A DNA stretch of 64,000 nt from an uncultured Candidatus Binatia bacterium (lineage in GTDB: Bacteria > Desulfobacterota > Binatia > Bin18). The notes beneath the pieces were generated by a model. It was not told where the DNA came from. It ran no database searches and saw only the letters and a list, made by a program, of their open reading frames with translations. Location of the stretch: contig OZ241744.1 of assembly GCA_965200965.1 (NCBI GenBank), positions 1,440,001-1,504,000 on the forward strand. Reading direction: 5' to 3'. Of this stretch, positions 29,846 to 63,726 are shown piece by piece (position 1 is the first letter of the stretch; the number at the start of each line of letters is the position of its first letter). The translations under genes were made by a program, and so were the position numbers.

Positions 29846-29847
29846 GC

Positions 29848-29934
29848 CTGTCTTCCGCCTCGCGCGGCTCAGCCGGCCGTTGGGGTTCTGAGGGGTATCG
29901 CGCCTGACTGTCTTCCGCCTCGCGCGGCTCAGCC
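29848..29934. repeat. Two identical 27-bp direct repeats separated by 33 bp
   Basis: CTGTCTTCCGCCTCGCGCGGCTCAGCC at 29848-29874 and 29908-29934. Confidence 0.85.
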
Positions 29935-53914: not shown

Positions 53915-55834
53915 CTATCCGCCGCTGCCCCCGCTCACACTCGACGCCTGGCCGCTCGCCACGTTGTTCTGGCCCCCGCTCACACTGGCGGAAATGCCGC
54001 TGGCCTCATTACTCTGGCCCCCGCTCACACTCGACGCCTGGCCGCTCGCCACATTGTTGTAGCCCCCGCTCACGCTGGCGGCAGGGGCTCGGGCTACGTT
54101 GTTCTGGCCCCCGCTCACGCTGGCGGAAGCGGATTGGGCCACGTTACGGTAGCCCCCGCTCACGCTGGCGGAAGCGGATTGGGCCACGTTACGGTAGCCC
54201 CCGCTCACGCTGGCGGCGGTACCGTGGACCCTGTTGGAGGTACCCCCGCTGATGCTGGCGGCAGTGCTGGTGGCCATATTGGACTGCCCCCCGCTCACGC
54301 TCGCATACGGGCCGCTGGCCACGTTCCCCACACCCCCGCTCACGCTCGACGCGTCGTCACTCGCCTCGTTGTTCTGGCCCCCGCTCACACTCCCATAGTC
54401 CCCGCTCGCCTCGTTGTCCCGGCCCCCACTCACGCTCGCGTACGCCCCGCTGATGATGTTCCCGACCCCCACCACCAAGCCACTATGACTCGAATACTCG
54501 TGCTCAGGGCCAATCACCACATTGTGCGAACCGCTGCGATCATTGCGGCCCGCAGTCCGCGGGGATCTGACCCCGACGGTGTTGAGATCTTCGTTGTAGC
54601 CCACGATCAGGTTGCCTAACCCGTTGGTCGTATTGGTGCTGCTAGCCCCGTTGCGGAAGTGGACATTGCAGCCCTCGAAGACTACATCAGCCTTCGTCTG
54701 GCCCCGGACGGCTTCGGTGGTGAGACAGGCAGGCAGACGGTTGCTGAAATCGTTGGCCGCTGCCACGGTCACGCCGCTGCCGCCGCCGATGGTGGAGAAG
54801 TTGCCCGTGGCCTGGTTGTTGGAACCCCCGCTCACACTCGCCGCACTGCTGGTCGCCGTGTTGCCGGAACCCCCGCTCACGCTGGTCGCCCAGCCGCCGG
54901 CCGTGTTGGCATGGCCCCCGCTCACACTGGAGTCATAATGCCGGGTCGTGTTGCTGTGGCCCCCGCTCACGCTGGAGTTCTCGCCGATGGCCGTGTTGCT
55001 CTGCCCCCCGCTCACGCTAGTGTGATAACCGATGGAGCGGTTGCGGTAGCCCCCGCTCACGCTCGCCGCAGGACCACTGGCTGTGTTCTGAGTACCCCCG
55101 CTCACGCTGGAGTCAAAGCTGCTGGCCGTGTTCTGATAGCCCCCGCTCACGCTGGAGTTCCCGCCGATGGCCCTGTTCTGATGACCCCCGCTCACGCTGG
55201 TGTGATAACCGATGGAGCGGTTGCGGTAGCCCCCGCTCACGCTCGCCGCAGGACCACTGGCCGTGTTGCCGGAACCCCCGCTCACGCTAGAGCTAGAGCT
55301 GCTGGCCGTGTTGTGGGAACCCCCGCTCACGCTCGCCGTCCAGCCGCGGGCTCGGTTGGACCAGCCCCCGCTCACACTCGCCGCATAGCCGGAGATAGCG
55401 TTATCATGCCCCGCCACCAGCCCGCCAGAACTGGGGTACTGATGCTGACTCCCAATCACCAGGTTGTGCGAGCCGCCCCGCTTGCTGCTATCTTCCTCGG
55501 GCCACGCCTCGTTGTAGCCGATAATCAGGTTGCCCAGCCCCAGGGGTTCGGAGACCCAGCCATCGTTCACGGTCCGTCCTTTATGGGTCACCCCCGACCC
55601 GCTGCGGATGTGGACATTGGCCCCGGTGAAGATTATGTGCGGACCGCTCAGGCCATGGTAGGTGCTGGTGGCCGCATCCTCAATCACCTGAATGTAGCGG
55701 GTCAGCTTGGCCACCGTGGTCTGTAAGGCCGACACTTGGGCCGCTAACTCCGCCAAGCTGGGCGCTTGGCCCCAACAGGGACTGGCTGCAAGCAGGACAC
55801 TACACACCGATGAGCACAGGAGGGAATAACGCAT
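53915..55834 (-). CDS. Secreted SVSGG-repeat protein, paralog G1 (639 aa)
   Basis: AAGGAG RBS, signal peptide MRYSLL, coiled coil, two GLGNLIxGYNE...GSHNxVIG modules each followed by 15-aa SVSGGxxNxAxxxxx repeats. Confidence 0.85.
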   Translation of the reverse strand: MRYSLLCSSVCSVLLAASPCWGQAPSLAELAAQVSALQTTVAKLTRYIQVIEDAATSTYHGLSGPHIIFTGANVHIRSGSGVTHKGRTVNDGWVSEPLGLGNLIIGYNEAWPEEDSSKRGGSHNLVIGSQHQYPSSGGLVAGHDNAISGYAASVSGGWSNRARGWTASVSGGSHNTASSSSSSVSGGSGNTASGPAASVSGGYRNRSIGYHTSVSGGHQNRAIGGNSSVSGGYQNTASSFDSSVSGGTQNTASGPAASVSGGYRNRSIGYHTSVSGGQSNTAIGENSSVSGGHSNTTRHYDSSVSGGHANTAGGWATSVSGGSGNTATSSAASVSGGSNNQATGNFSTIGGGSGVTVAAANDFSNRLPACLTTEAVRGQTKADVVFEGCNVHFRNGASSTNTTNGLGNLIVGYNEDLNTVGVRSPRTAGRNDRSGSHNVVIGPEHEYSSHSGLVVGVGNIISGAYASVSGGRDNEASGDYGSVSGGQNNEASDDASSVSGGVGNVASGPYASVSGGQSNMATSTAASISGGTSNRVHGTAASVSGGYRNVAQSASASVSGGYRNVAQSASASVSGGQNNVARAPAASVSGGYNNVASGQASSVSGGQSNEASGISASVSGGQNNVASGQASSVSGGSGG

Positions 55835-55966
55835 CACACGCTCCTTGCGGCCCCACAGGGGCGGAGAGAGAAGATGACACACTCAATACCTGCCTTCCCG
55901 CTGAGCCGTCAAGGCAGGGCCGCCGGACCTGCTGCGGAACAGAGCCGGCCCGCCGGCCGTGCAACG

Positions 55967-56116
55967 CCCCTGCCGCGTGCGCCCGGAGCGGGGGCATATA
56001 TGGGATGAAGTCCGTCACCGGTTGCTGCCCCTGCCGCGTGCGCCCGGAGCGGAGGGCTGGCCAGGAGACCTACCTCATCGGCCTCAAACCCCTGCCGCGT
56101 GCGCCCGGAGCGGGGT
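55967..56116. CRISPR. CRISPR-like mini-array A: 3 repeats, 2 spacers
   Basis: Repeat CCCCTGCCGCGTGCGCCCGGAGCGGRGK at 55967, 56028, 56089 (period 61); two unrelated 33-bp spacers; no cas genes in window. Confidence 0.6.
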
Positions 56117-56237
56117 AAACCCAGGGCACAGCCGGCTCGCCGCGCAGGGACTGACCGGCTCTGAACCGGTTGCCTGGGAGGACTCGCCGGGCAAGTCAGA
56201 ACGGGGGCGGGGCACGCCCCCGCAGCCCCCGGCAGGA

Positions 56238-57950
56238 CTAGAGGTCGGCGTTGACCGTCTGGTTCTTGCCCCCGCTGATGCTGCTCCGCCTTCCGCTCGC
56301 CCGGTTGTTCAACCCCCCGCTCACGCTCGCCGCTGCCCCGCTCGCCCGGTTCTGCACACTCACACTCGCCAGCGGATCAGGGCCAGCCGTGTTGCTCTGC
56401 CCCCCGAGCACGCTCGCATACGAGCCGCTGGCCACATTCGCCACGCCCCCGCTCACGCTCGACGCGTCGCCACTCGCCTCGTTGTTCTGGCCTCCGCTCA
56501 CACTCCCATAGTCCCCGCTCGCCTCGTTGTCCCGGCCCCCACTCACGCTCGCGTACTCCCCGCTGATGATGTTCCCGATGCCCACCACCAAGCCACTATG
56601 ACTCGAATACTCGTGCTCAGGGCCAATCACCACATTGTGCGAACCGCTGCGATCATTGCGGCCCAAGGTCCGCTGGGCAACGATCCCGGCGGTGGTGTCC
56701 ACATCTTCGTTGTAGCCCACGATCAGGTTGCCTAACCCGTTGGTCGTATTGGTGCTGCTAGCCCCGTTGTGGAGGTGGACATTGCAGCCCGTGAAGACTA
56801 CATCAGCCTTCGCCTGGCCGTCCACGTCTTTGGTGGTGAGACAGGCAGGCAGGCGGTTGCTGAAGTCGTTGGCCCCTATCACGGTCACGCTGCTGCCCCC
56901 GCCGACGGTGGAGAAGTTGCCCGTGGCCTGGTTGTTGGAACCCCCGCTCACGCTCGACGCAGTGCTCGTCGCCGTGTTGCTCTGCCCCCCGCTCACGCTC
57001 GCGTGCCGACCGCCGGCCGTGTTGTAGGCACCCCCGCTCACGCTCGCGTGCCGACCGCCGGCCGTGTTGTAGGAACCCCCGCTCACGCTCGTATGAGGAG
57101 CCGTGGCCTGGTTCCCATAGCCCCCGCTCACGCTCGCCGTCCACTCGCTGGCCCTGTTGCTGTGGCCCCCGCTCACACTGGAGGTCACGCCGCTGGCCCG
57201 GTTCCCATCGCCCCCACTCACACTGGAGTTCGGGCCGCTGGCCGTGTTGTACAAGCCCCCGCTCACGCTCGCCTGAGGGCCGATGGCCCTGTTGCTGTGG
57301 CCCCCGCTCACGCTGGTGTGATAACCGATGGAGCGGTTCCCATAGCCCCCGCTCACGCTCGCCGCAGGACCACTGGCCGTGTTGCCGGAACCCCCGCTCA
57401 CACTAGAGCTAGAACTGCTGGCCGTGTTACGGGAACCCCCGCTCACGCTCGCCGCCCAGCCGCGGGCTCGGTTGGACCAGCCCCCGCTCACACTCGCCGC
57501 ATGGGCGGAGATAGCGTTATCATGCCCCGCCACCAGCCCGCCAGAACTGGGGTACTGATGCTGACTCCCAATCACCAGGTTGTGCGAGCCGCCCCGCTTG
57601 CTGCTATCTTCCTCGGGCCACGCCTCGTTGTAGCCGATAATCAGGTTGCCCAGCCCCAGGGGTTCGGAGACCCAGCCATCGTTCACGGTCCGTCCTTTAT
57701 GGGTCACCCCCGACCCGCTGCGGATGTGGACATTGGCCCCGGTGAAGATTATGTGCGGACCGCTCAGGCCATGGTAGGTGCTGGTGGCCGCATCCTCAAT
57801 CACCTGAATGTAGCGGGTCAGCTTGGCCACCGTGGTCTGTAAGGCCGACACTTGGGCCGCTAACTCCGCCAAGCTGGGCGCTTGGCCCCAACAGGGACTG
57901 GCTGCAAGCAGGACACTACACACCGATGAGCACAGGAGGGAATAACGCAT
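56238..57950 (-). CDS. Secreted SVSGG-repeat protein, paralog G2 (570 aa)
   Basis: Same N-terminus as G1, different repeat content, ends SISGGKNQTVNADL. Confidence 0.85.
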   Translation of the reverse strand: MRYSLLCSSVCSVLLAASPCWGQAPSLAELAAQVSALQTTVAKLTRYIQVIEDAATSTYHGLSGPHIIFTGANVHIRSGSGVTHKGRTVNDGWVSEPLGLGNLIIGYNEAWPEEDSSKRGGSHNLVIGSQHQYPSSGGLVAGHDNAISAHAASVSGGWSNRARGWAASVSGGSRNTASSSSSSVSGGSGNTASGPAASVSGGYGNRSIGYHTSVSGGHSNRAIGPQASVSGGLYNTASGPNSSVSGGDGNRASGVTSSVSGGHSNRASEWTASVSGGYGNQATAPHTSVSGGSYNTAGGRHASVSGGAYNTAGGRHASVSGGQSNTATSTASSVSGGSNNQATGNFSTVGGGSSVTVIGANDFSNRLPACLTTKDVDGQAKADVVFTGCNVHLHNGASSTNTTNGLGNLIVGYNEDVDTTAGIVAQRTLGRNDRSGSHNVVIGPEHEYSSHSGLVVGIGNIISGEYASVSGGRDNEASGDYGSVSGGQNNEASGDASSVSGGVANVASGSYASVLGGQSNTAGPDPLASVSVQNRASGAAASVSGGLNNRASGRRSSISGGKNQTVNADL

Positions 57951-58082
57951 CACACGCTCCTTGCGGCCCCACAGGGGCGGAGAGAGAAGATGACACACTC
58001 AATACCTGCCTTCCCGCTGAGCCGTCAAGGCAGGGCCGCCGGACCTGCTGCGGAACAGAGCCGGCCCGCCGGCCGTGCAACG

Positions 58083-58292
58083 CCCCTGCCGCGTGCGCCC
58101 GGAGCGGGGGCATATATGGGATGAAGTCCGTCACCGGTTGCTGCCCCTGCCGCGTGCGCCCGGAGCGGGGGGGCTTTGAGGGAGATGTAAAATGCCAGCA
58201 GGACCCCTGCCGCGTGCGCCCGGAGCGGAGGGCTGGCCAGGAGACCTACCTCATCGGCCTCAAACCCCTGCCGCGTGCGCCCGGAGCGGGGT
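58083..58292. CRISPR. CRISPR-like mini-array B: 4 repeats, 3 spacers
   Basis: Repeats at 58083, 58144, 58204, 58265; first and last spacers identical to array A, extra 32-bp middle spacer GGCTTTGAGGGAGATGTAAAATGCCAGCAGGA. Confidence 0.62.
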
Positions 58293-58420
58293 AAACCCAG
58301 GGCACAGCCGGCTCGCCGCGCAGGGACTGACCGGCTCTGAACCGGTTGCCTGGGAGGGCTGCGCCGGGCAAGTCAGAACGGGGCGGGACACGCCCCCCAG
58401 CCCCCCAGCCCCCGGCAGGA

Positions 58421-59962
58421 CTAGAGGTCGGCGTTAGCCGTCTGGTTCTTGCCCCCGCTGATGCTGCTCCGCTTCCCGCTCGCCCAGTTGTGGTACCCCC
58501 CGCTCACGCTCGCCGCTTCCCCGGTCGCCCGGTTCAGCCGGCCCCCGCTCACACTCGACGCCGAGGCAGGGCCAGCCGTGTTGTTGTTCCCCCCGCTCAC
58601 GCTCGCATACGAGCCGCTGGCCACATTCGCCAAGCCCCCGCTCACGCTCGCCGCGTCGCCACTCGCCTCGTTGTTCTGGCCTCCGCTCACACTCCCATAG
58701 TCCCCGCTCGCCTCGTTGTCCCGGCCCCCACTCACGCTCGCGTACTCCCCGCTGATGATGTTCCCGATGCCCACCACCAAGCCACTATGACTCGAATACT
58801 CGTGCTCAGGGCCAATCACCACATTGTGCGAACCGCTGCGATCATTGCGGCCCGCAGTCCGCGGGGATCTGACCCCGACGGTGTTGAGATCTTCGTTGTA
58901 GCCCACGATCAGGTTGCCTAACCCGTTGGTCGTATTGGTGCTGCTAGCCCCGTTGCGGAAGTGGACATTGCAGCCCTCGAAGACTACATCAGCCTTCACC
59001 TGATTCCTCACGGCTGGCGGTTTGGTCCTCAGGCAGGCCGGCCAGAGGTAGCGGAAGTCGGCCACGCCGGTCGCGGTCAGGCCGTCGCCCCCGCTCACGC
59101 TGGAGAGCCGGCCGGAGGCCTGGTTGCGATGACCGCCGAGGACGCTGGCCCAATGCTCGCTCGCCGCGTTCGCCCGGCCCCCGCTCACGCTCGACACCCG
59201 CCCGCTGGCCATGTTCAGACGGCCCCCGCTCACGCTGGAGTAGTAACCAATGGCTCGGTTGTCCAAGCCCCCGCTCACGCTCGCATAATCGGCCGTGGCC
59301 CAGTTCCCATAGCCCCCGCTCACGCTCGCCGTATAGCCGCTGGCCGTGTTCTGATAGCCCCCGCTCACGCTCGACGCGCTGCTCGTCGCCGTGTTGCCCC
59401 GGCCCCCGCTCACGCTCGCATGAGCACCGCTGGCCGTGTTGTCGAGGCCCCCGCTCACGCTGGAGTCCTTACCCTGGGCCACGTTCCCACCACCGCCGCT
59501 CACGCTGGCCGCATAGCCGGAGATGACGTTGTTATGCCCCGCCACCAGCCCGCCGGAGTTGGGGTATTGATGATACCTCCCGATCACCAAGTTGTGCGAG
59601 CCGCCCCGCTGGGCCGTATCCGCAGTCGGCCAAGTGTTCGCCTCGTTGTAGCCGATAATCAGGTTGCCCAGCCCCAGGGGTTCGGAGACCCAGCCATCGT
59701 TCACGGTCCGCCCTTTGTGGGTCACCCCCGACCCGCTGCGGATGTGGACATTGGCCCCAGTGAAGATTATGTGCGGACCGCTCAGGCCATGGTAGGTGCT
59801 GGTGGCCGCATCCTCAATCACCTGAATGTAGCGGGTCAGCTTGGCCACAGTGGCCTCTAAGCTTTGGACCCGGCTCTCCAGGGTAGGCGCTGTCTGGCTC
59901 CAGCCCGGACTGGTGGTCAGCAGGATGGAGAACAGGGAAGAGAACAACACGAAACAACGCAT
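58421..59962 (-). CDS. Secreted SVSGG-repeat protein, paralog G3 (513 aa)
   Basis: AAAGGAG RBS, signal peptide MRCFVLF, same two-module architecture. Confidence 0.85.
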   Translation of the reverse strand: MRCFVLFSSLFSILLTTSPGWSQTAPTLESRVQSLEATVAKLTRYIQVIEDAATSTYHGLSGPHIIFTGANVHIRSGSGVTHKGRTVNDGWVSEPLGLGNLIIGYNEANTWPTADTAQRGGSHNLVIGRYHQYPNSGGLVAGHNNVISGYAASVSGGGGNVAQGKDSSVSGGLDNTASGAHASVSGGRGNTATSSASSVSGGYQNTASGYTASVSGGYGNWATADYASVSGGLDNRAIGYYSSVSGGRLNMASGRVSSVSGGRANAASEHWASVLGGHRNQASGRLSSVSGGDGLTATGVADFRYLWPACLRTKPPAVRNQVKADVVFEGCNVHFRNGASSTNTTNGLGNLIVGYNEDLNTVGVRSPRTAGRNDRSGSHNVVIGPEHEYSSHSGLVVGIGNIISGEYASVSGGRDNEASGDYGSVSGGQNNEASGDAASVSGGLANVASGSYASVSGGNNNTAGPASASSVSGGRLNRATGEAASVSGGYHNWASGKRSSISGGKNQTANADL

Positions 59963-60123
59963 AAGGCGCTCCTTTCGGCCCTACAGGGGGCGGTCAGAGT
60001 TAAGATAGAGCGCATTCATACGCTTCTTCCGCCCAAGCGGTCAAGGCGGGGCCGGGGCCGGGCGTGCCTGCCACGGAAGAGAGCGGACCCGCCCGCCTTG
60101 CACCTCAGGTTTGCCCTCTGTAT

Positions 60124-60662
60124 ATGAGGACAGGCCAGCGTCGGGACTCCAGCACCATGCAATCAACACCCACATCACGCTCAGCCTTCCGCTTCCTGGT
60201 CCTCCTGAGCGCCACGCTCGGGGTGTTGACCGCGGTGCAGACTCAGGACGGGCCAGGCGTGTAGAATGGAGGAAAGGCCGCCTGGTGGGATTTTTCCCTC
60301 CTTGATCTGGGGCTGATCGGCTGGGGCAACGCGCCCCAACAGCCGGTCGCTTTCAGCCACGCTCTGCACGCCGAGGCCGGCCTTGACTGCCTGTACTGCC
60401 ATAGCGCAGCCCGCCTCTCGCCCCAGGCCGGGATTCCGCCCCTCGCAACGTGTATCGGCTGCCACAGAAGAGCCACCGCCCAGCCCGAACTGCTCAAGGT
60501 GCAGGACTACTGGCAACGCCAGCAGCCCATCCCCTGGGTGCGGGTGCATAGGCTACCCCGCTTTACCCGCTTCAGCCACAAACGGCATATTCGGGCCGGC
60601 CTTGAGTGCTTGAGTTGTCACGGCCCAGTGGACCGGATGGAGCGGGTGGAGCAGGGCTCGTC
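60124..60662 (+). pseudogene. Duplicated, truncated copy of the multiheme cytochrome c gene
   Basis: Near-identical to 63112-63650; TGG>TAG at 60262-60264; breaks off after the third CxxCH. Confidence 0.88.
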
Positions 60663-60815
60663 AATCACCTGAATGGAGCGGGTCAGGGTAGCGACTGTGG
60701 TCTGTAAGGCCGACACTTGGGCCGCTAACTCCGCCAAGCTGGGCGCTTGGCCCCAACAGGGACTGGCTGCAAGCAGGACACTACACACCGATGAGCACAG
60801 GAGGGAATAACGCAT
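60661..60815 (-). pseudogene. 5' fragment of an SVSGG-repeat protein gene (G4)
   Basis: MRYSLL...SIQVI nearly identical to the G1/G2 starts, cut at the junction with the cytochrome copy. Confidence 0.85.
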
Positions 60816-60947
60816 CACACGCTCCTTGCGGCCCCACAGGGGCGGAGAGAGAAGATGACACACTCAATACCTGCCTTCCCGCTGAGCCGTCAAGGCAGGG
60901 CCGCCGGACCTGCTGCGGAACAGAGCCGGCCCGCCGGCCGTGCAACG

Positions 60948-60975
60948 CCCCTGCCGCGTGCGCCCGGAGCGGGGT
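60948..60975. repeat. Solo copy of the mini-array repeat (array C, no spacer)
   Basis: CCCCTGCCGCGTGCGCCCGGAGCGGGGT in flanks nearly identical to array A, exactly 122 bp (2 x 61) shorter. Confidence 0.85.
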
Positions 60976-61096
60976 GATCCCGGGGCACAGCCGGCTCGCC
61001 GCGCAGGGACTGACCGGCTCTGAACCGGTTGCCTGGGAGGACTCGCCGGGCAAGTCAGAACGGGGGCGGGGCACGCCCCCGCAGCCCCCGGCAGGA

Positions 61097-62944
61097 CTAG
61101 AGGTCGGCGTTGACCGTCTGGTTCTTGCCCCCGCTGATGCTGCTCCGCCTTCCGCTCGCCCGGTTGTTCAACCCCCCGCTCACGCTCGCCGCTGCCCCGC
61201 TCGCCCGGTTCTGCACACTCACACTCGCCAGCGGATCAGGGCCAGCCGTGTTGCTCTGCCCCCCGAGCACGCTCGCATACGAGCCGCTGGCCACATTCGC
61301 CACGCCCCCGCTCACGCTCGACGCGTCGCCACTCGCCTCGTTGTTCTGGCCTCCGCTCACACTCCCATAGTCCCCGCTCGCCTCGTTGTCCCGGCCCCCA
61401 CTCACGCTCGCGTACTCCCCGCTGATGATGTTCCCGACCCCCACCACCAAGCCACTATGACTCGAATACTCGTGCTCAGGGCCAATCACCACATTGTGCG
61501 AACCGCTGCGATCATTGCGGCCCAAGGTCCGCTGGGTAGCGATCCCGGCGGTGGTGTCCACATCTTCGTTGTAGCCCACGATCAGGTTGCCTAACCCGTT
61601 GGTCGTATTGGTGCTGCTAGCCCCGTTGTGGAGGTGGACATTGCAGCCCGTGAAGACTACATCAGCCTTCGCCTGGCCGTCCACGTCTTTGGTGGTGAGA
61701 CAGGCAGGCAGGCGGTTGCTGAAATCGTTGGCCGCTGCCACGGTCACGCCGCTGCCGCCGCCGATGGTGGAGAAGTTGCCCGTGACTCGGTTGTTGGAGC
61801 CCCCGCTCACGCTCGCCGCAGTGCTCGTCGCCGTGTTGCTCTGCCCCCCGCTCACGCTGGTCGCCCAGCCGCCGGCCGTGTTGGCATGGCCCCCGCTCAC
61901 GCTGGAGTCATAAGCCCGGGTCGTGTTGCCAGTGCCGCCGCTCACACTGGAGGTCCCGCCGATGGCCCTGTTCTGACTGCCCCCGCTCACGCTGGAGTTA
62001 ATGCCGATGGCCCTGTTCCTATAACCACCGCTCACGCTCGCCCCCAAGTCGCTGGCCCTGTTCTGACTGCCCCCGCTCACGCTCGCCACATAGCCGATGG
62101 CCCTGTTCCCCTGGCCCCCGCTCACGCTCGCCGCAGTGCCCGTCGCCGTGTTGCTCTGCCCCCCGCTCACGCTGGTCGCCCAGCCGCCGGCCGTGTTGGC
62201 ATGGCCCCCGCTCACGCTGGAGTCATAAGCCCGGGTCGTGTTGCCAGTGCCGCCGCTCACACTGGAGGTCCCGCCGATGGCCCTGTTCTGACTGCCCCCA
62301 CTCACGCTGGAGTTAATGCCGATGGCCCTGTTCCTATAACCCCCGCTCACGCTCGCCCCCAAGTCGCTGGCCCTGTTCTGACTGCCCCCGCTCACGCTCG
62401 CCGCAGTGCTCGTCGCCGTGTTGCTCTGCCCCCCGCTCACGCTGGTCGCCCAGCCGCCGGCCGTGTTGGCATGGCCCCCGCTCACGCTCGCCGAAACGCC
62501 GGAGATGACGTTATCCGCCCCCACCACCAGCCCGCCAGAACCGGGGTACTGATGCTGACTCCCAATCACCAGGTTGTGCGAGCCGCCCCGCTGGGCCGTA
62601 TCCGCAGTCGGCGAATCGTTCGCCTCGTTGTAGCCGATAATCAGGTTGCCCAGCCCCAGGGGTTCGGAGCCCCAGTTATCGTTCACGGTCCGCCCTCTAT
62701 GGGTCACCCCCGACCCGCTGCGGATGTGGACATTGGCCCCAGTGAAGATTATGTGCGGACCGCTCAGGCCATGGTAGGTGCTGGTGGCCGCATCCTCAAT
62801 CACCTGGATGTAGCGGGTCAGCTTGGCCACCGTGGCCTCTAGGCTTTGGACCCGGCTCTCCAGGGTAGGCGCTGTCTGGCTCCAGCCTGGGCTGGCGGTC
62901 AGCAGGATGGAGAACAGGGAAGAGAACAACACGAAACAACGCAT
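61097..62944 (-). CDS. Secreted SVSGG-repeat protein, paralog G5 (615 aa)
   Basis: MRCFVLF N-terminus, 16 repeats in module 1 including a block duplication, G2-type C-terminal module. Confidence 0.85.
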   Translation of the reverse strand: MRCFVLFSSLFSILLTASPGWSQTAPTLESRVQSLEATVAKLTRYIQVIEDAATSTYHGLSGPHIIFTGANVHIRSGSGVTHRGRTVNDNWGSEPLGLGNLIIGYNEANDSPTADTAQRGGSHNLVIGSQHQYPGSGGLVVGADNVISGVSASVSGGHANTAGGWATSVSGGQSNTATSTAASVSGGSQNRASDLGASVSGGYRNRAIGINSSVSGGSQNRAIGGTSSVSGGTGNTTRAYDSSVSGGHANTAGGWATSVSGGQSNTATGTAASVSGGQGNRAIGYVASVSGGSQNRASDLGASVSGGYRNRAIGINSSVSGGSQNRAIGGTSSVSGGTGNTTRAYDSSVSGGHANTAGGWATSVSGGQSNTATSTAASVSGGSNNRVTGNFSTIGGGSGVTVAAANDFSNRLPACLTTKDVDGQAKADVVFTGCNVHLHNGASSTNTTNGLGNLIVGYNEDVDTTAGIATQRTLGRNDRSGSHNVVIGPEHEYSSHSGLVVGVGNIISGEYASVSGGRDNEASGDYGSVSGGQNNEASGDASSVSGGVANVASGSYASVLGGQSNTAGPDPLASVSVQNRASGAAASVSGGLNNRASGRRSSISGGKNQTVNADL

Positions 62945-63111
62945 AAAGCGCTCCTTTCGGCCCTACAGGGGGCGGTTAGAGTTAAGATAGAGCGCATTCA
63001 TACGCTTCTTCCGCCCAAGCGGTCAAGGCGGGGCCGGGGCCGGCGTACCTGCCACGGAAGACGGAAGAGAGCAGGTACGCCCGCCTTGCGCCTCAGGGTT
63101 GCCCTCTGTAT

Positions 63112-63726
63112 ATGAGGACAGGCCAGCGTCGGGACTCCAGCACCATGCAGTCAACACCCACATCACGCTCAGCCTTCCGCTTCCTGGTCCTCCTCAGCGC
63201 TACGCTCGGGGTGTTGACCGTGGTGCAGACTCAGGACGGGCCAGGCGTGTGGAATGGGGGAAAGGCCGCCTGGTGGGATTTTTCCCTCCTTGATCTGGGG
63301 CTGACCGGCTGGGGCAACGCGCCCCAACAGCCGGTCGCTTTCAGCCATGCCTTGCACGCCGAGGCTGGCCTTGACTGCCTGTACTGCCATAGCGCAGCCC
63401 GCCTCTCGCCCCAGGCCGGGATTCCGCCCCTCGCAACGTGTATCGGCTGCCACAGAAGAGCCACCGCCCAGCCCGAGTTGCTCAAGGTGCAGGACTACTG
63501 GCAACGCCAGCAGCCCATCCCCTGGGTGCGGGTGCATAGGCTGCCCCGCTTTACCCGCTTCAGCCACAAACGGCATATTCGGGCCGGCCTTGAGTGCTTG
63601 AGTTGTCACGGCCCAGTGGACCGGATGGAGCGGGTGGAGCAGGTCTCGTCGCTGAAAATGGGCTGGTGTGTGAGCTGCCACGAGGCCCAGCGGGCGGACA
63701 AAGACTGTCTGGTATGCCATTATTGA
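63112..63726 (+). CDS. Membrane-anchored pentaheme cytochrome c (ActA/QrcA-like)
   Basis: Five CxxCH (CLYCH, CIGCH, CLSCH, CVSCH, CLVCH), PQQPVAFSH, IPWVRVH, LKMGWC; alternative start 63145. Confidence 0.9.
   Translation: MRTGQRRDSSTMQSTPTSRSAFRFLVLLSATLGVLTVVQTQDGPGVWNGGKAAWWDFSLLDLGLTGWGNAPQQPVAFSHALHAEAGLDCLYCHSAARLSPQAGIPPLATCIGCHRRATAQPELLKVQDYWQRQQPIPWVRVHRLPRFTRFSHKRHIRAGLECLSCHGPVDRMERVEQVSSLKMGWCVSCHEAQRADKDCLVCHY

What the first reader, a model, noticed from the sequence alone, without database searches (positions are those of the whole stretch)
53915..62944. Tandem, combinatorially shuffled family of secreted 15-aa SVSGG-repeat proteins
Seen: four full genes and one fragment share signal peptide + coiled coil + two (GLGNLIxGYNE domain + repeat tract) modules. 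They form a full 2x2 mosaic of N-terminus (MRYS in G1/G2, MRCF in G3/G5) and second module (FEGC..DLNTVG in G1/G3, FTGC..DVDTTAG in G2/G5). Module-1 repeat counts are about 13, 13, 10 and 16. Identical units recur in different order (HANTAGGWAT once in G1 and three times in G5; block duplications with 315- and 270-bp offsets in G5). The DNA anchor CCCCCGCTCACGCT recurs every 45 bp with almost fixed codon choice. Inference: beta-roll/solenoid adhesin- or fibre-like surface proteins diversified by recombination at the anchor, a possible host-interaction or phage-evasion variation system. No autotransporter anchor or S74 chaperone domain is visible.
Basis: partly seen in the sequence, partly recalled or inferred. 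Interest (0 to 1): 0.72.

Follow-up and report, generated by a model that had tools for sequence, protein, structure and literature searches.

The report
Shuffled fibre genes, newborn CRISPR array
A sponge-dwelling bacterium carries four shuffled copies of a gene for a likely sticky surface fibre, and between them sits a tiny CRISPR-like array filled mostly with the cell's own DNA, likely built by the CRISPR memory enzyme writing in the wrong place again and again.

Summary
Observation confirmed. Four genes and a fragment encode a signal peptide, a helix and two modules of 15-residue repeats matching the UspA1 adhesin head (PDB 3pr7, E 4e-39), with no membrane anchor. The 2x2 mosaic is real (0 of 100,000 permutations). 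A sister species has six different copies at the same locus, so the cluster is not an assembly accident. The family is widespread (4,180 hits). Ordinary recombination and slippage explain the shuffling. Visible junctions are not at the DNA anchor, and no programmed system was found.

It differs between populations (empty, A-C, A-B-C, A-E-C, E-C, plus D). Four of five spacers match the own chromosome exactly, one in tilS, against 7 of 465 in the ordinary arrays. Thirteen single repeat-spacer-repeat scars lie elsewhere in the genome; 9 of 11 tested are empty in the sister species. Best reading: a natural neo-CRISPR array made by off-target type I-E Cas1-Cas2, probably inert. This scan has noted both kinds before on other DNA.

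The parts
53915..55834 (-). G1, 639 aa: signal peptide, helix, domain + 13 units, domain + 11 units and a cut-short twelfth; lacks the usual C-terminal tail
56238..57950 (-). G2, 570 aa; N-terminus identical to G1, second module nearly identical to G5
58421..59962 (-). G3, 513 aa; N-terminus of the G5 type, second domain of the G1 type, linker of the type of the paralog at C1 990 kb
60658..60815 (-). G4 fragment: first ~52 codons of the G1/G2 type, fused to the partial cytochrome c copy at a 5-base microhomology
61097..62944 (-). G5, 615 aa; module-1 tract with 315- and 270-base block duplications
59991..60662 (+). 95% copy of 62973-63650 (region upstream of G5 and most of the cytochrome c gene): remnant of a tandem duplication
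55966..56115 (+). Mini-array 1: three 28-base repeats, spacers A (55995-56026) and C (56056-56087); both match the own chromosome exactly
58082..58291 (+). Mini-array 2: four repeats, spacers A, B (58172-58202, no match found), C; other populations hold E in place of B, or nothing
60947..60974 (+). Single copy of the repeat, no spacer (empty state of the site)
29846..29934 (.). Separate repeat-spacer-repeat scar (period 60) at the 3' end of a dehydrogenase-like ORF; empty in sister species G007
63112..63726 (+). Neighbour: multiheme cytochrome c gene; flanks the cluster in G007 too

Best explanation
The four genes are mosaics of one another that likely encode exported, likely trimeric beta-roll fibres like the UspA1 adhesin head but without its membrane anchor, and the repeat array upstream of two of them is likely an inert neo-CRISPR array built by repeated off-target spacer insertion by the cell's type I-E Cas1-Cas2. 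Fibres: a signal peptide takes them through the inner membrane (inferred from the sequence by eye); a type II secretion system is on hand for the outer membrane (gene shown, use inferred). Each 15-residue unit is one layer; positions 1-5, 8, 10, 15 are fixed and positions 6, 7, 13, 14 vary freely (shown), so the variable residues would face outwards (inferred). Tandem duplication, unequal crossing-over and gene conversion change layer number and order (mosaic shown, mechanism inferred). The likely use is sticking to sponge tissue or neighbours (untested). Array: an ordinary intergenic 28-mer with a faint likeness to the I-E repeat was duplicated each time a 33-base piece was inserted. It lacks the hairpin and 3' handle of the true repeat, so it would give no working guide RNA, and pieces of self DNA are not purged as they are in the real array. 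It was copied along with the fibre genes, and spacers are gained and lost between populations (shown).
For: Fibres: profile hit to 3pr7 E 4.3e-39; Pfam UspA1_rep over cut-off in 2 of 4 genes; best Foldseek hits UspA1 and BpaC; PMC9543794 (passages) describes 15-residue layers with a second glycine as peculiar to UspA1; no YadA anchor in 8 of 8 genus genomes, control rang; GspD over cut-off; position entropy; 0 of 59 units shared with the 90 of the G007 cluster. Array: period 61 as in 220 of 223 own I-E spacers; full I-E operon; 4 of 5 spacers match self exactly against 7 of 465, Fisher p 8e-7; flanks AAG, GAG, AAT, AAC/ACT; 3 of the 4 self-matching I-E spacers belong to the 6 of 223 with the rare PAM-side base, as expected if good-PAM self spacers are purged there; spacer E matches tilS; states differ among 8 runs; 13 further scars, 5 with a self match, 9 of 11 tested empty in G007; G007 lacks both the array and an I-E cas1.
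Against: Trimer, export and binding are untested. The non-repeat domain stayed low in confidence (pLDDT 38-55). The adhesin-head matches have rmsd 7-8 A while other beta-helices match at 2.4-3.7 A, so the monomer model does not settle the hand of the roll. The likeness to the I-E repeat is weak: 13 of 28 bases, reached by 2.1% of genome 28-mers. No leader-like or IHF-like motif on the left flank, so five insertions at one site need a reason I cannot give. Spacer A begins with G where its target has T; B and D are one base short; B has no target. The PAM of this I-E system could not be read from foreign targets. The intergenic DNA around the array does not align with G007, so no ancestral empty site is seen outside this species. 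Only five spacers are known.
Confidence: 0.7

Rival explanations
1. The mini-array is a working regulatory array: its guides are loaded by a resident effector and silence own genes without cutting, or its length tunes the fibre promoters.
For: Perfect self matches with PAM-like flanks; placed 132 bases upstream of two start codons; spacer C is present in the array in 7 of 8 runs.
Against: Targets are unrelated (an ORF in a methylase operon, a vWA protein, a periplasmic binding protein, tilS) and change between populations; run X10 has no spacer at all; no csf2 or csy3 in the genome (the csf2 control did not pass its cut-off); Cas3 with its HD domain is intact, so loading on Cascade should kill; no promoter consensus at the array.
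Confidence: 0.1
2. The array is the stranded remnant of a mobile element's CRISPR system (type IV-like or variant I-E) that targeted the host chromosome.
For: The repeat differs from all five resident arrays; a 14-base imperfect inverted repeat brackets it.
Against: No copy in 60 relatives at up to 3 mismatches, none exact in the genome, viral or metagenome collections, none in plasmids; the flanks occur nowhere else, and 68 bases of the right flank are an 81% copy of the neighbouring oxidoreductase gene; the genome-wide scars show the off-target process is active here.
Confidence: 0.1
3. The fibre cluster is a programmed variation system in which a dedicated enzyme recombines units at the 14-base anchor to evade phage or host.
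For: Near-fixed anchor codons, while distant homologs use mixed codons; complete unit turnover between sister species; P0002 has a new module-1 tract.
Against: The placed junction and the conversion patch lie outside the anchor; P0001 keeps the order of G3; the neighbours scanned are metabolic genes; fixed codons follow from recent amplification of one unit.
Confidence: 0.08
4. The tandem copies and differing arrays are strain alleles strung together by the assembler.
For: No laid contig spans the cluster; the genome has frameshifts in other genes; contamination estimate 5.74%.
Against: G007 has six full copies and two fragments at the same locus; copies differ far more than alleles (78/126 nt in the N-terminus); both N-terminal types appear in the same runs.
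Confidence: 0.05

Closest known systems
Head of the trimeric autotransporter adhesin UspA1 of Moraxella catarrhalis (PDB 3pr7, 3ntn; Pfam PF18792)
   Same: 15-residue layers with a glycine pair and Asn ladder; signal peptide; a helix that could form a coiled coil.
   Different: No C-terminal barrel anchor here or in the genus; helix is N-terminal; two roll modules each capped by an unnamed GLGNLIxGYNE domain; four to six tandem copies.
Neo-CRISPR loci from off-target spacer integration by E. coli type I-E Cas1-Cas2 (Nivala, Shipman and Church 2018; paper not held, known here only from citing passages in 10.1101/148544, PMC7054753, PMC11788318, PMC6698737)
   Same: Repeat-sized duplication of a non-CRISPR site around a spacer-sized insert; 61-base step; AAG-type flank.
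   Different: Natural, not under overexpression; at least five different spacers at one site, varying between wild populations; copied by gene duplication; scars of two size classes in one genome, 7 of 13 keeping the reading frame.
Orphan and virus-borne mini-CRISPR arrays (review PMC8616872, passages)
   Same: Short array far from cas genes.
   Different: Those repeats match the host's own repeat and mostly target viruses; this repeat does not, and its spacers match the chromosome.

Membership tests
Trimeric autotransporter adhesin (type Vc) | Beta-roll head repeats | tested here: met
   3pr7 E 4.3e-39; PF18792 in 4 of 4 genes, over cut-off in 2; confident solenoid in both models
Trimeric autotransporter adhesin (type Vc) | C-terminal beta-barrel membrane anchor | tested here: not met
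   No such Pfam hit in the four proteins; PF03895 in 0 of 8 genus genomes, control positive
Trimeric autotransporter adhesin (type Vc) | Obligate trimer with coiled-coil stalk | not testable with these tools
Trimeric autotransporter adhesin (type Vc) | Sec signal peptide | tested here: inconclusive
   Hydrophobic N-terminus seen by eye and as a helix; no signal-peptide predictor run
S74-chaperoned tail-fibre-like proteins | C-terminal S74 domain | tested here: not met
   No hit at E up to 1; 4 of 120 listed homologs carry PF13884 (the family name is recalled)
Canonical type I-E CRISPR array | 61-base step (28 + 33) with PAM-side base | tested here: met
   Periods 61, 61, 61, 60, 61; first base fits the target flank for C, E and D, not for A
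Canonical type I-E CRISPR array | Cognate repeat with internal hairpin and 3' handle | tested here: not met
   13 of 28 identical; predicted pairing joins the two ends instead; no Rfam match
Canonical type I-E CRISPR array | AT-rich leader and nearby cas genes | tested here: not met
   GC-rich flanks without the motif; I-E operon lies 1.3 Mb away
Neo-CRISPR array (off-target Cas1-Cas2 integration) | Single-copy empty site beside filled forms with repeat-sized duplication | tested here: met
   Run X10 bridges a single repeat; single copy at 60947; 9 of 11 other scars empty in G007. Empty forms of the mini-array could also be deletions.
Neo-CRISPR array (off-target Cas1-Cas2 integration) | A matching Cas1-Cas2 in the same genome | tested here: met
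   cas1e over cut-off and a cas2-sized ORF beside a 224-repeat array
Neo-CRISPR array (off-target Cas1-Cas2 integration) | Target site resembles the cognate repeat | tested here: inconclusive
   CCGC at positions 8-11 in the best register of 3 of 5 short-class sites; whole-site likeness only in the top 2.1%
Neo-CRISPR array (off-target Cas1-Cas2 integration) | Integration shown directly with the enzyme | not testable with these tools
   Needs an in vitro or heterologous assay
Type IV or type I-F orphan array | Cognate backbone gene (csf2, csy3) and PAM | tested here: not met
   0 matches for each; a CC flank on the other strand holds for 2 of 4 targets only
Programmed variation system (shufflon, retroelement, cassette conversion) | Dedicated recombinase or reverse transcriptase and fixed crossover site | tested here: inconclusive
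   Only three neighbours were scanned; junctions seen lie outside the anchor; no genome-wide search run

The most novel reading that the evidence does not exclude
CRISPR adaptation has been turned into a mutator. A leaderless hotspot upstream of the fibre genes keeps taking up self DNA in wild sponge populations, its changing length or its repeats tune expression or recombination of the fibre cassettes, and in-frame misinsertions elsewhere add 20-26 residues to proteins such as DprA. This would be the birth of a CRISPR array caught in the act, with a use outside immunity.
Probability: 0.12. Interest if true: 0.85.

Novelty: new variant of a known kind. Interest (0 to 1): 0.58.

Why it matters
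How new CRISPR arrays arise is open: the laboratory answer (off-target integration) had, in the passages I could read, only circumstantial support in nature. Here one site has taken at least five spacers, varies between wild populations, and can be compared in the same genome with a real array under selection. That makes the rate of self-acquisition without counter-selection, and the features of a leaderless hotspot, directly testable. The spacers also serve as time-ordered markers for the duplications of the fibre genes. The fibres belong to a very large unstudied family, expanded to 7 and 10 long copies in two sponge-type Binatia; they are candidates for host attachment, but that part is ordinary paralog shuffling.

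Tried and rejected
No RNA holder listed: no evidence on expression either way. Rfam: no match in 53-64 kb. Repeat searches blank: 60 relatives, genome, viral and metagenome collections, plasmids (two chance hits at E 0.8). Spacer B: no match in the own genome, viral contigs or 7 genus genomes. PAM of the own I-E system from foreign targets: none found. Type I-F reading from a CC flank: fitted A and C, failed for D and E. Promoter and terminator scan at 57900-58460: nothing. The X3 joint that skips all spacers may be the single-repeat copy at 60947, so I do not count it. Scar candidates set aside: 60 of the 78 rows, judged by eye as coding tandem repeats, among them C1 2360019 (ambiguous) and an isolated period-87 pair at 1788535 (untested); C1 3449077 (tandem duplication in the RNA polymerase gene). 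The 37-base scars could not be assigned to one resident array by sequence (10-17 matches). No known fold was found for residues before ~92 of the single-module model, which is barely tested. Atlas: nearest clusters unnamed. NCBIfam has no family for G3. Literature searches found no paper on this family or on a natural multi-spacer neo-array; the library lacks most subscription papers, including Nivala 2018 and its supplements, which may list natural cases.
Full report
Setting. The window is C1:1440001-1504000 of a single 3.62-Mb contig. The best relative of the protein domain in named genomes (85% identity) is titled uncultured Candidatus Binatia bacterium. Of the 10 runs with about half or more of the words, 4 are labelled sponge metagenome and the rest carry coded names.

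The observation. All particulars check out: four genes and a fragment, unit counts 13, 13, 10, 16, the shared units and the 315- and 270-base duplications. The mosaic is formal: 60 sites join G1 with G2, then 17 join G1 with G3, then 2 join G1 with G5, with two switches; 0 of 100,000 permutations match that (non-repeat parts and the start of module 2 only). The linker gives a third pattern (G1-G5 80/81, G3 with the 990-kb paralog 40/42). Three more paralogs lie at C1 552, 990 and 1428 kb, the first with a frameshift after its signal peptide.

What the proteins are. A profile of 24 homologs hits three PDB sequences: UspA1 3pr7 (E 4.3e-39), 3ntn and a grass ice-binding roll. Models give a helix at 25-54 and confident solenoids over the repeats, with the GLGNLIxGYNE domain at low confidence. 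Fold searches rank adhesin heads first, but at rmsd 7-8 A, so the hand is unsettled. PMC9543794 (passages) says the 15-residue layer with a second glycine marks UspA1 and that such adhesins are obligate trimers. There is no barrel anchor. A GspD secretin passes its cut-off. The family is large: 4,180 of 7,992 scored candidates at E 1e-20; of the 120 listed, 67 have the domain motif once, 32 two or three times, 21 not; 5 carry PF01391 and 4 PF13884 (recalled as collagen and S74, both trimer-linked). Distant members in many phyla mostly have one domain and few units. Among 60 relatives, 7 match; within the genus only G007, with 10 long genes.

How they vary. G007 has six genes and two fragments beside the same cytochrome c gene and shares 0 of 59 units. 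P0001, a G3 allele, keeps the unit order but has a domain patch like the 990-kb paralog; P0002 has the ends of G1 with a new module-1 tract. The G4 fragment is fused to a partial cytochrome c copy at five shared bases. Gene order against G007 can be explained by two inversions, one with both ends in these paralogs (my inference from flank matches). All this is what tandem duplication, unequal exchange and conversion give. Nothing ties it to the anchor.

A 28-base repeat occurs 8 times in the genome, all here: three, four and one copies upstream of G1, G2 and the G4 fragment. Spacer A matches C1 2273758-2273789 and C matches 2818269-2818300 exactly; B has no match. Contigs of 8 runs from 4 studies show other states: A-C (X1, X8), A-B-C (X11, which may be the source sample), A-E-C (X7; E also in X3, X4), E-C without A (X9), a single repeat (X10) and a further spacer D (X3) (adjacency rests on short contig pieces). 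D and E match this chromosome exactly, in a periplasmic binding protein gene and in tilS. So 4 of 5 are self, against 7 of 465 distinct spacers in the five ordinary arrays (p 8e-7; for the window's own three spacers 2 of 3, p 0.001).

Which enzyme. Only the I-E array has this step: 28 + 33 in 220 of 223. Its operon is complete. Read from its leader, its PAM-side base is C, T or G, and A in only 6 of 223; 3 of its 4 self-matching spacers are among those 6, which suggests purging there. The mini-array targets have AAG, GAG, AAT and AAC or ACT on the expected side. E. coli uses AAG and a 61-base step (PMC7054753, PMC11788318; passages); that GAG also licenses attack is recalled. The mini repeat matches the I-E repeat at 13 of 28 places in register, which is weak, and lacks its hairpin and handle. 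PMC7054753 notes that self spacers reach 2 to 99% when interference is off. G007 has no I-E cas1 over cut-off (97% complete) and no such unit in the 7 loci checked.

Genome-wide test. If off-target insertion is at work, other scars should exist. A scan of periods 45-130 gave 78 rows: 5 from the mini-arrays, 13 isolated units, 60 set aside as coding repeats. Four units have period 60-61 and nine have 68-78, the steps of the resident arrays. Five of the 13 inserts match self; one has AAG at its far end, i.e. went in flipped. Of 11 tested in G007, 9 are empty with one copy of the repeat and 2 lack a spanning ortholog. Seven of 13 keep the frame, including one in a DprA gene; three of the four short ones are 60, not 61. 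One lies in this window at 29846.

Mechanism, shown and inferred. Shown: mosaic genes, roll-type repeats, missing anchor, array states, self matches, empty orthologs. Inferred: export route, trimer, adhesion, the I-E enzyme as author, the lack of guide RNA, growth from the left end (C kept in 7 of 8 runs, A missing in X9).

Prior art. Off-target integration making neo-CRISPR loci is known from Nivala 2018, which I could not read; 10.1101/148544 (passages) says it is unclear how common this is in nature; PMC6698737 (passages) reports it in vitro. PMC8616872 (passages) covers orphan arrays. PMC11394691 and PMC6636882 (passages) added only the reference or nothing. No supplements were read. Earlier notes of this scan describe similar fibre clusters and similar scars in other genomes; I saw them after my own tests, and they are not evidence.

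Verdict. The fibre cluster is real and ordinary in mechanism, a lineage expansion of an unstudied family. The more telling feature is the small, still changing, self-filled array. New variant of a known kind; interest 0.58.

Noticed in passing
window 29846-29934: Repeat-spacer-repeat scar (29-base duplication, period 60) at a gene end; empty in G007; insert has no self match.
   Followed up: yes
G000:C1 244733, 445086, 589271, 1118449, 1247290, 1833927, 1842262, 2173979, 2540592, 2790043, 3359968, 3494940: Twelve more isolated scars of two size classes; several are in-frame insertions, one inside the conserved part of DprA (L115).
   Followed up: partly
L016 10320-13975 (C1 680319-683974): Cas12c gene in two overlapping frames (both halves over cut-off) beside a cas1 also in two pieces; no array found there by the simple scan. 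May be decay or read errors.
   Followed up: partly
G000:C1 1689 kb, 2072 kb, 2215 kb, 2820 kb, 3366 kb: Five CRISPR arrays (128, 23, 21, 224, 87 repeats) and six cas1 loci in a 3.6-Mb genome.
   Followed up: partly
G000:C1 2834835-2834872: A 38-base stretch 92% like the I-E array sits at the cas6-cas1 junction.
   Followed up: no
G000:C1 1428-1494 kb against G007:C4 283-347 kb: A 60-kb block is inverted between the two species with fibre paralogs at its ends; G1 lacks the usual tail and the 1428-kb copy has one long tract of 30 units.
   Followed up: partly
window 56131-56196: Right flank of the array is an 81% copy of 68 bases of the oxidoreductase gene just beyond the window (C1 1504238).
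   Followed up: partly
G000:C1 1055000-1058800: Long array of 102-105-base repeats, not examined for coding frame.
   Followed up: no
L048 4781-8989; L051-L053: G007 has a second two-gene cluster, one gene frameshifted in module 2; G020 has three short one-domain copies, two identical.
   Followed up: no
L013 (C1 2266-2274 kb): Spacer A target lies in a 333-aa ORF without any family hit, in an operon with a DNA methylase and a restriction-type subunit.
   Followed up: partly
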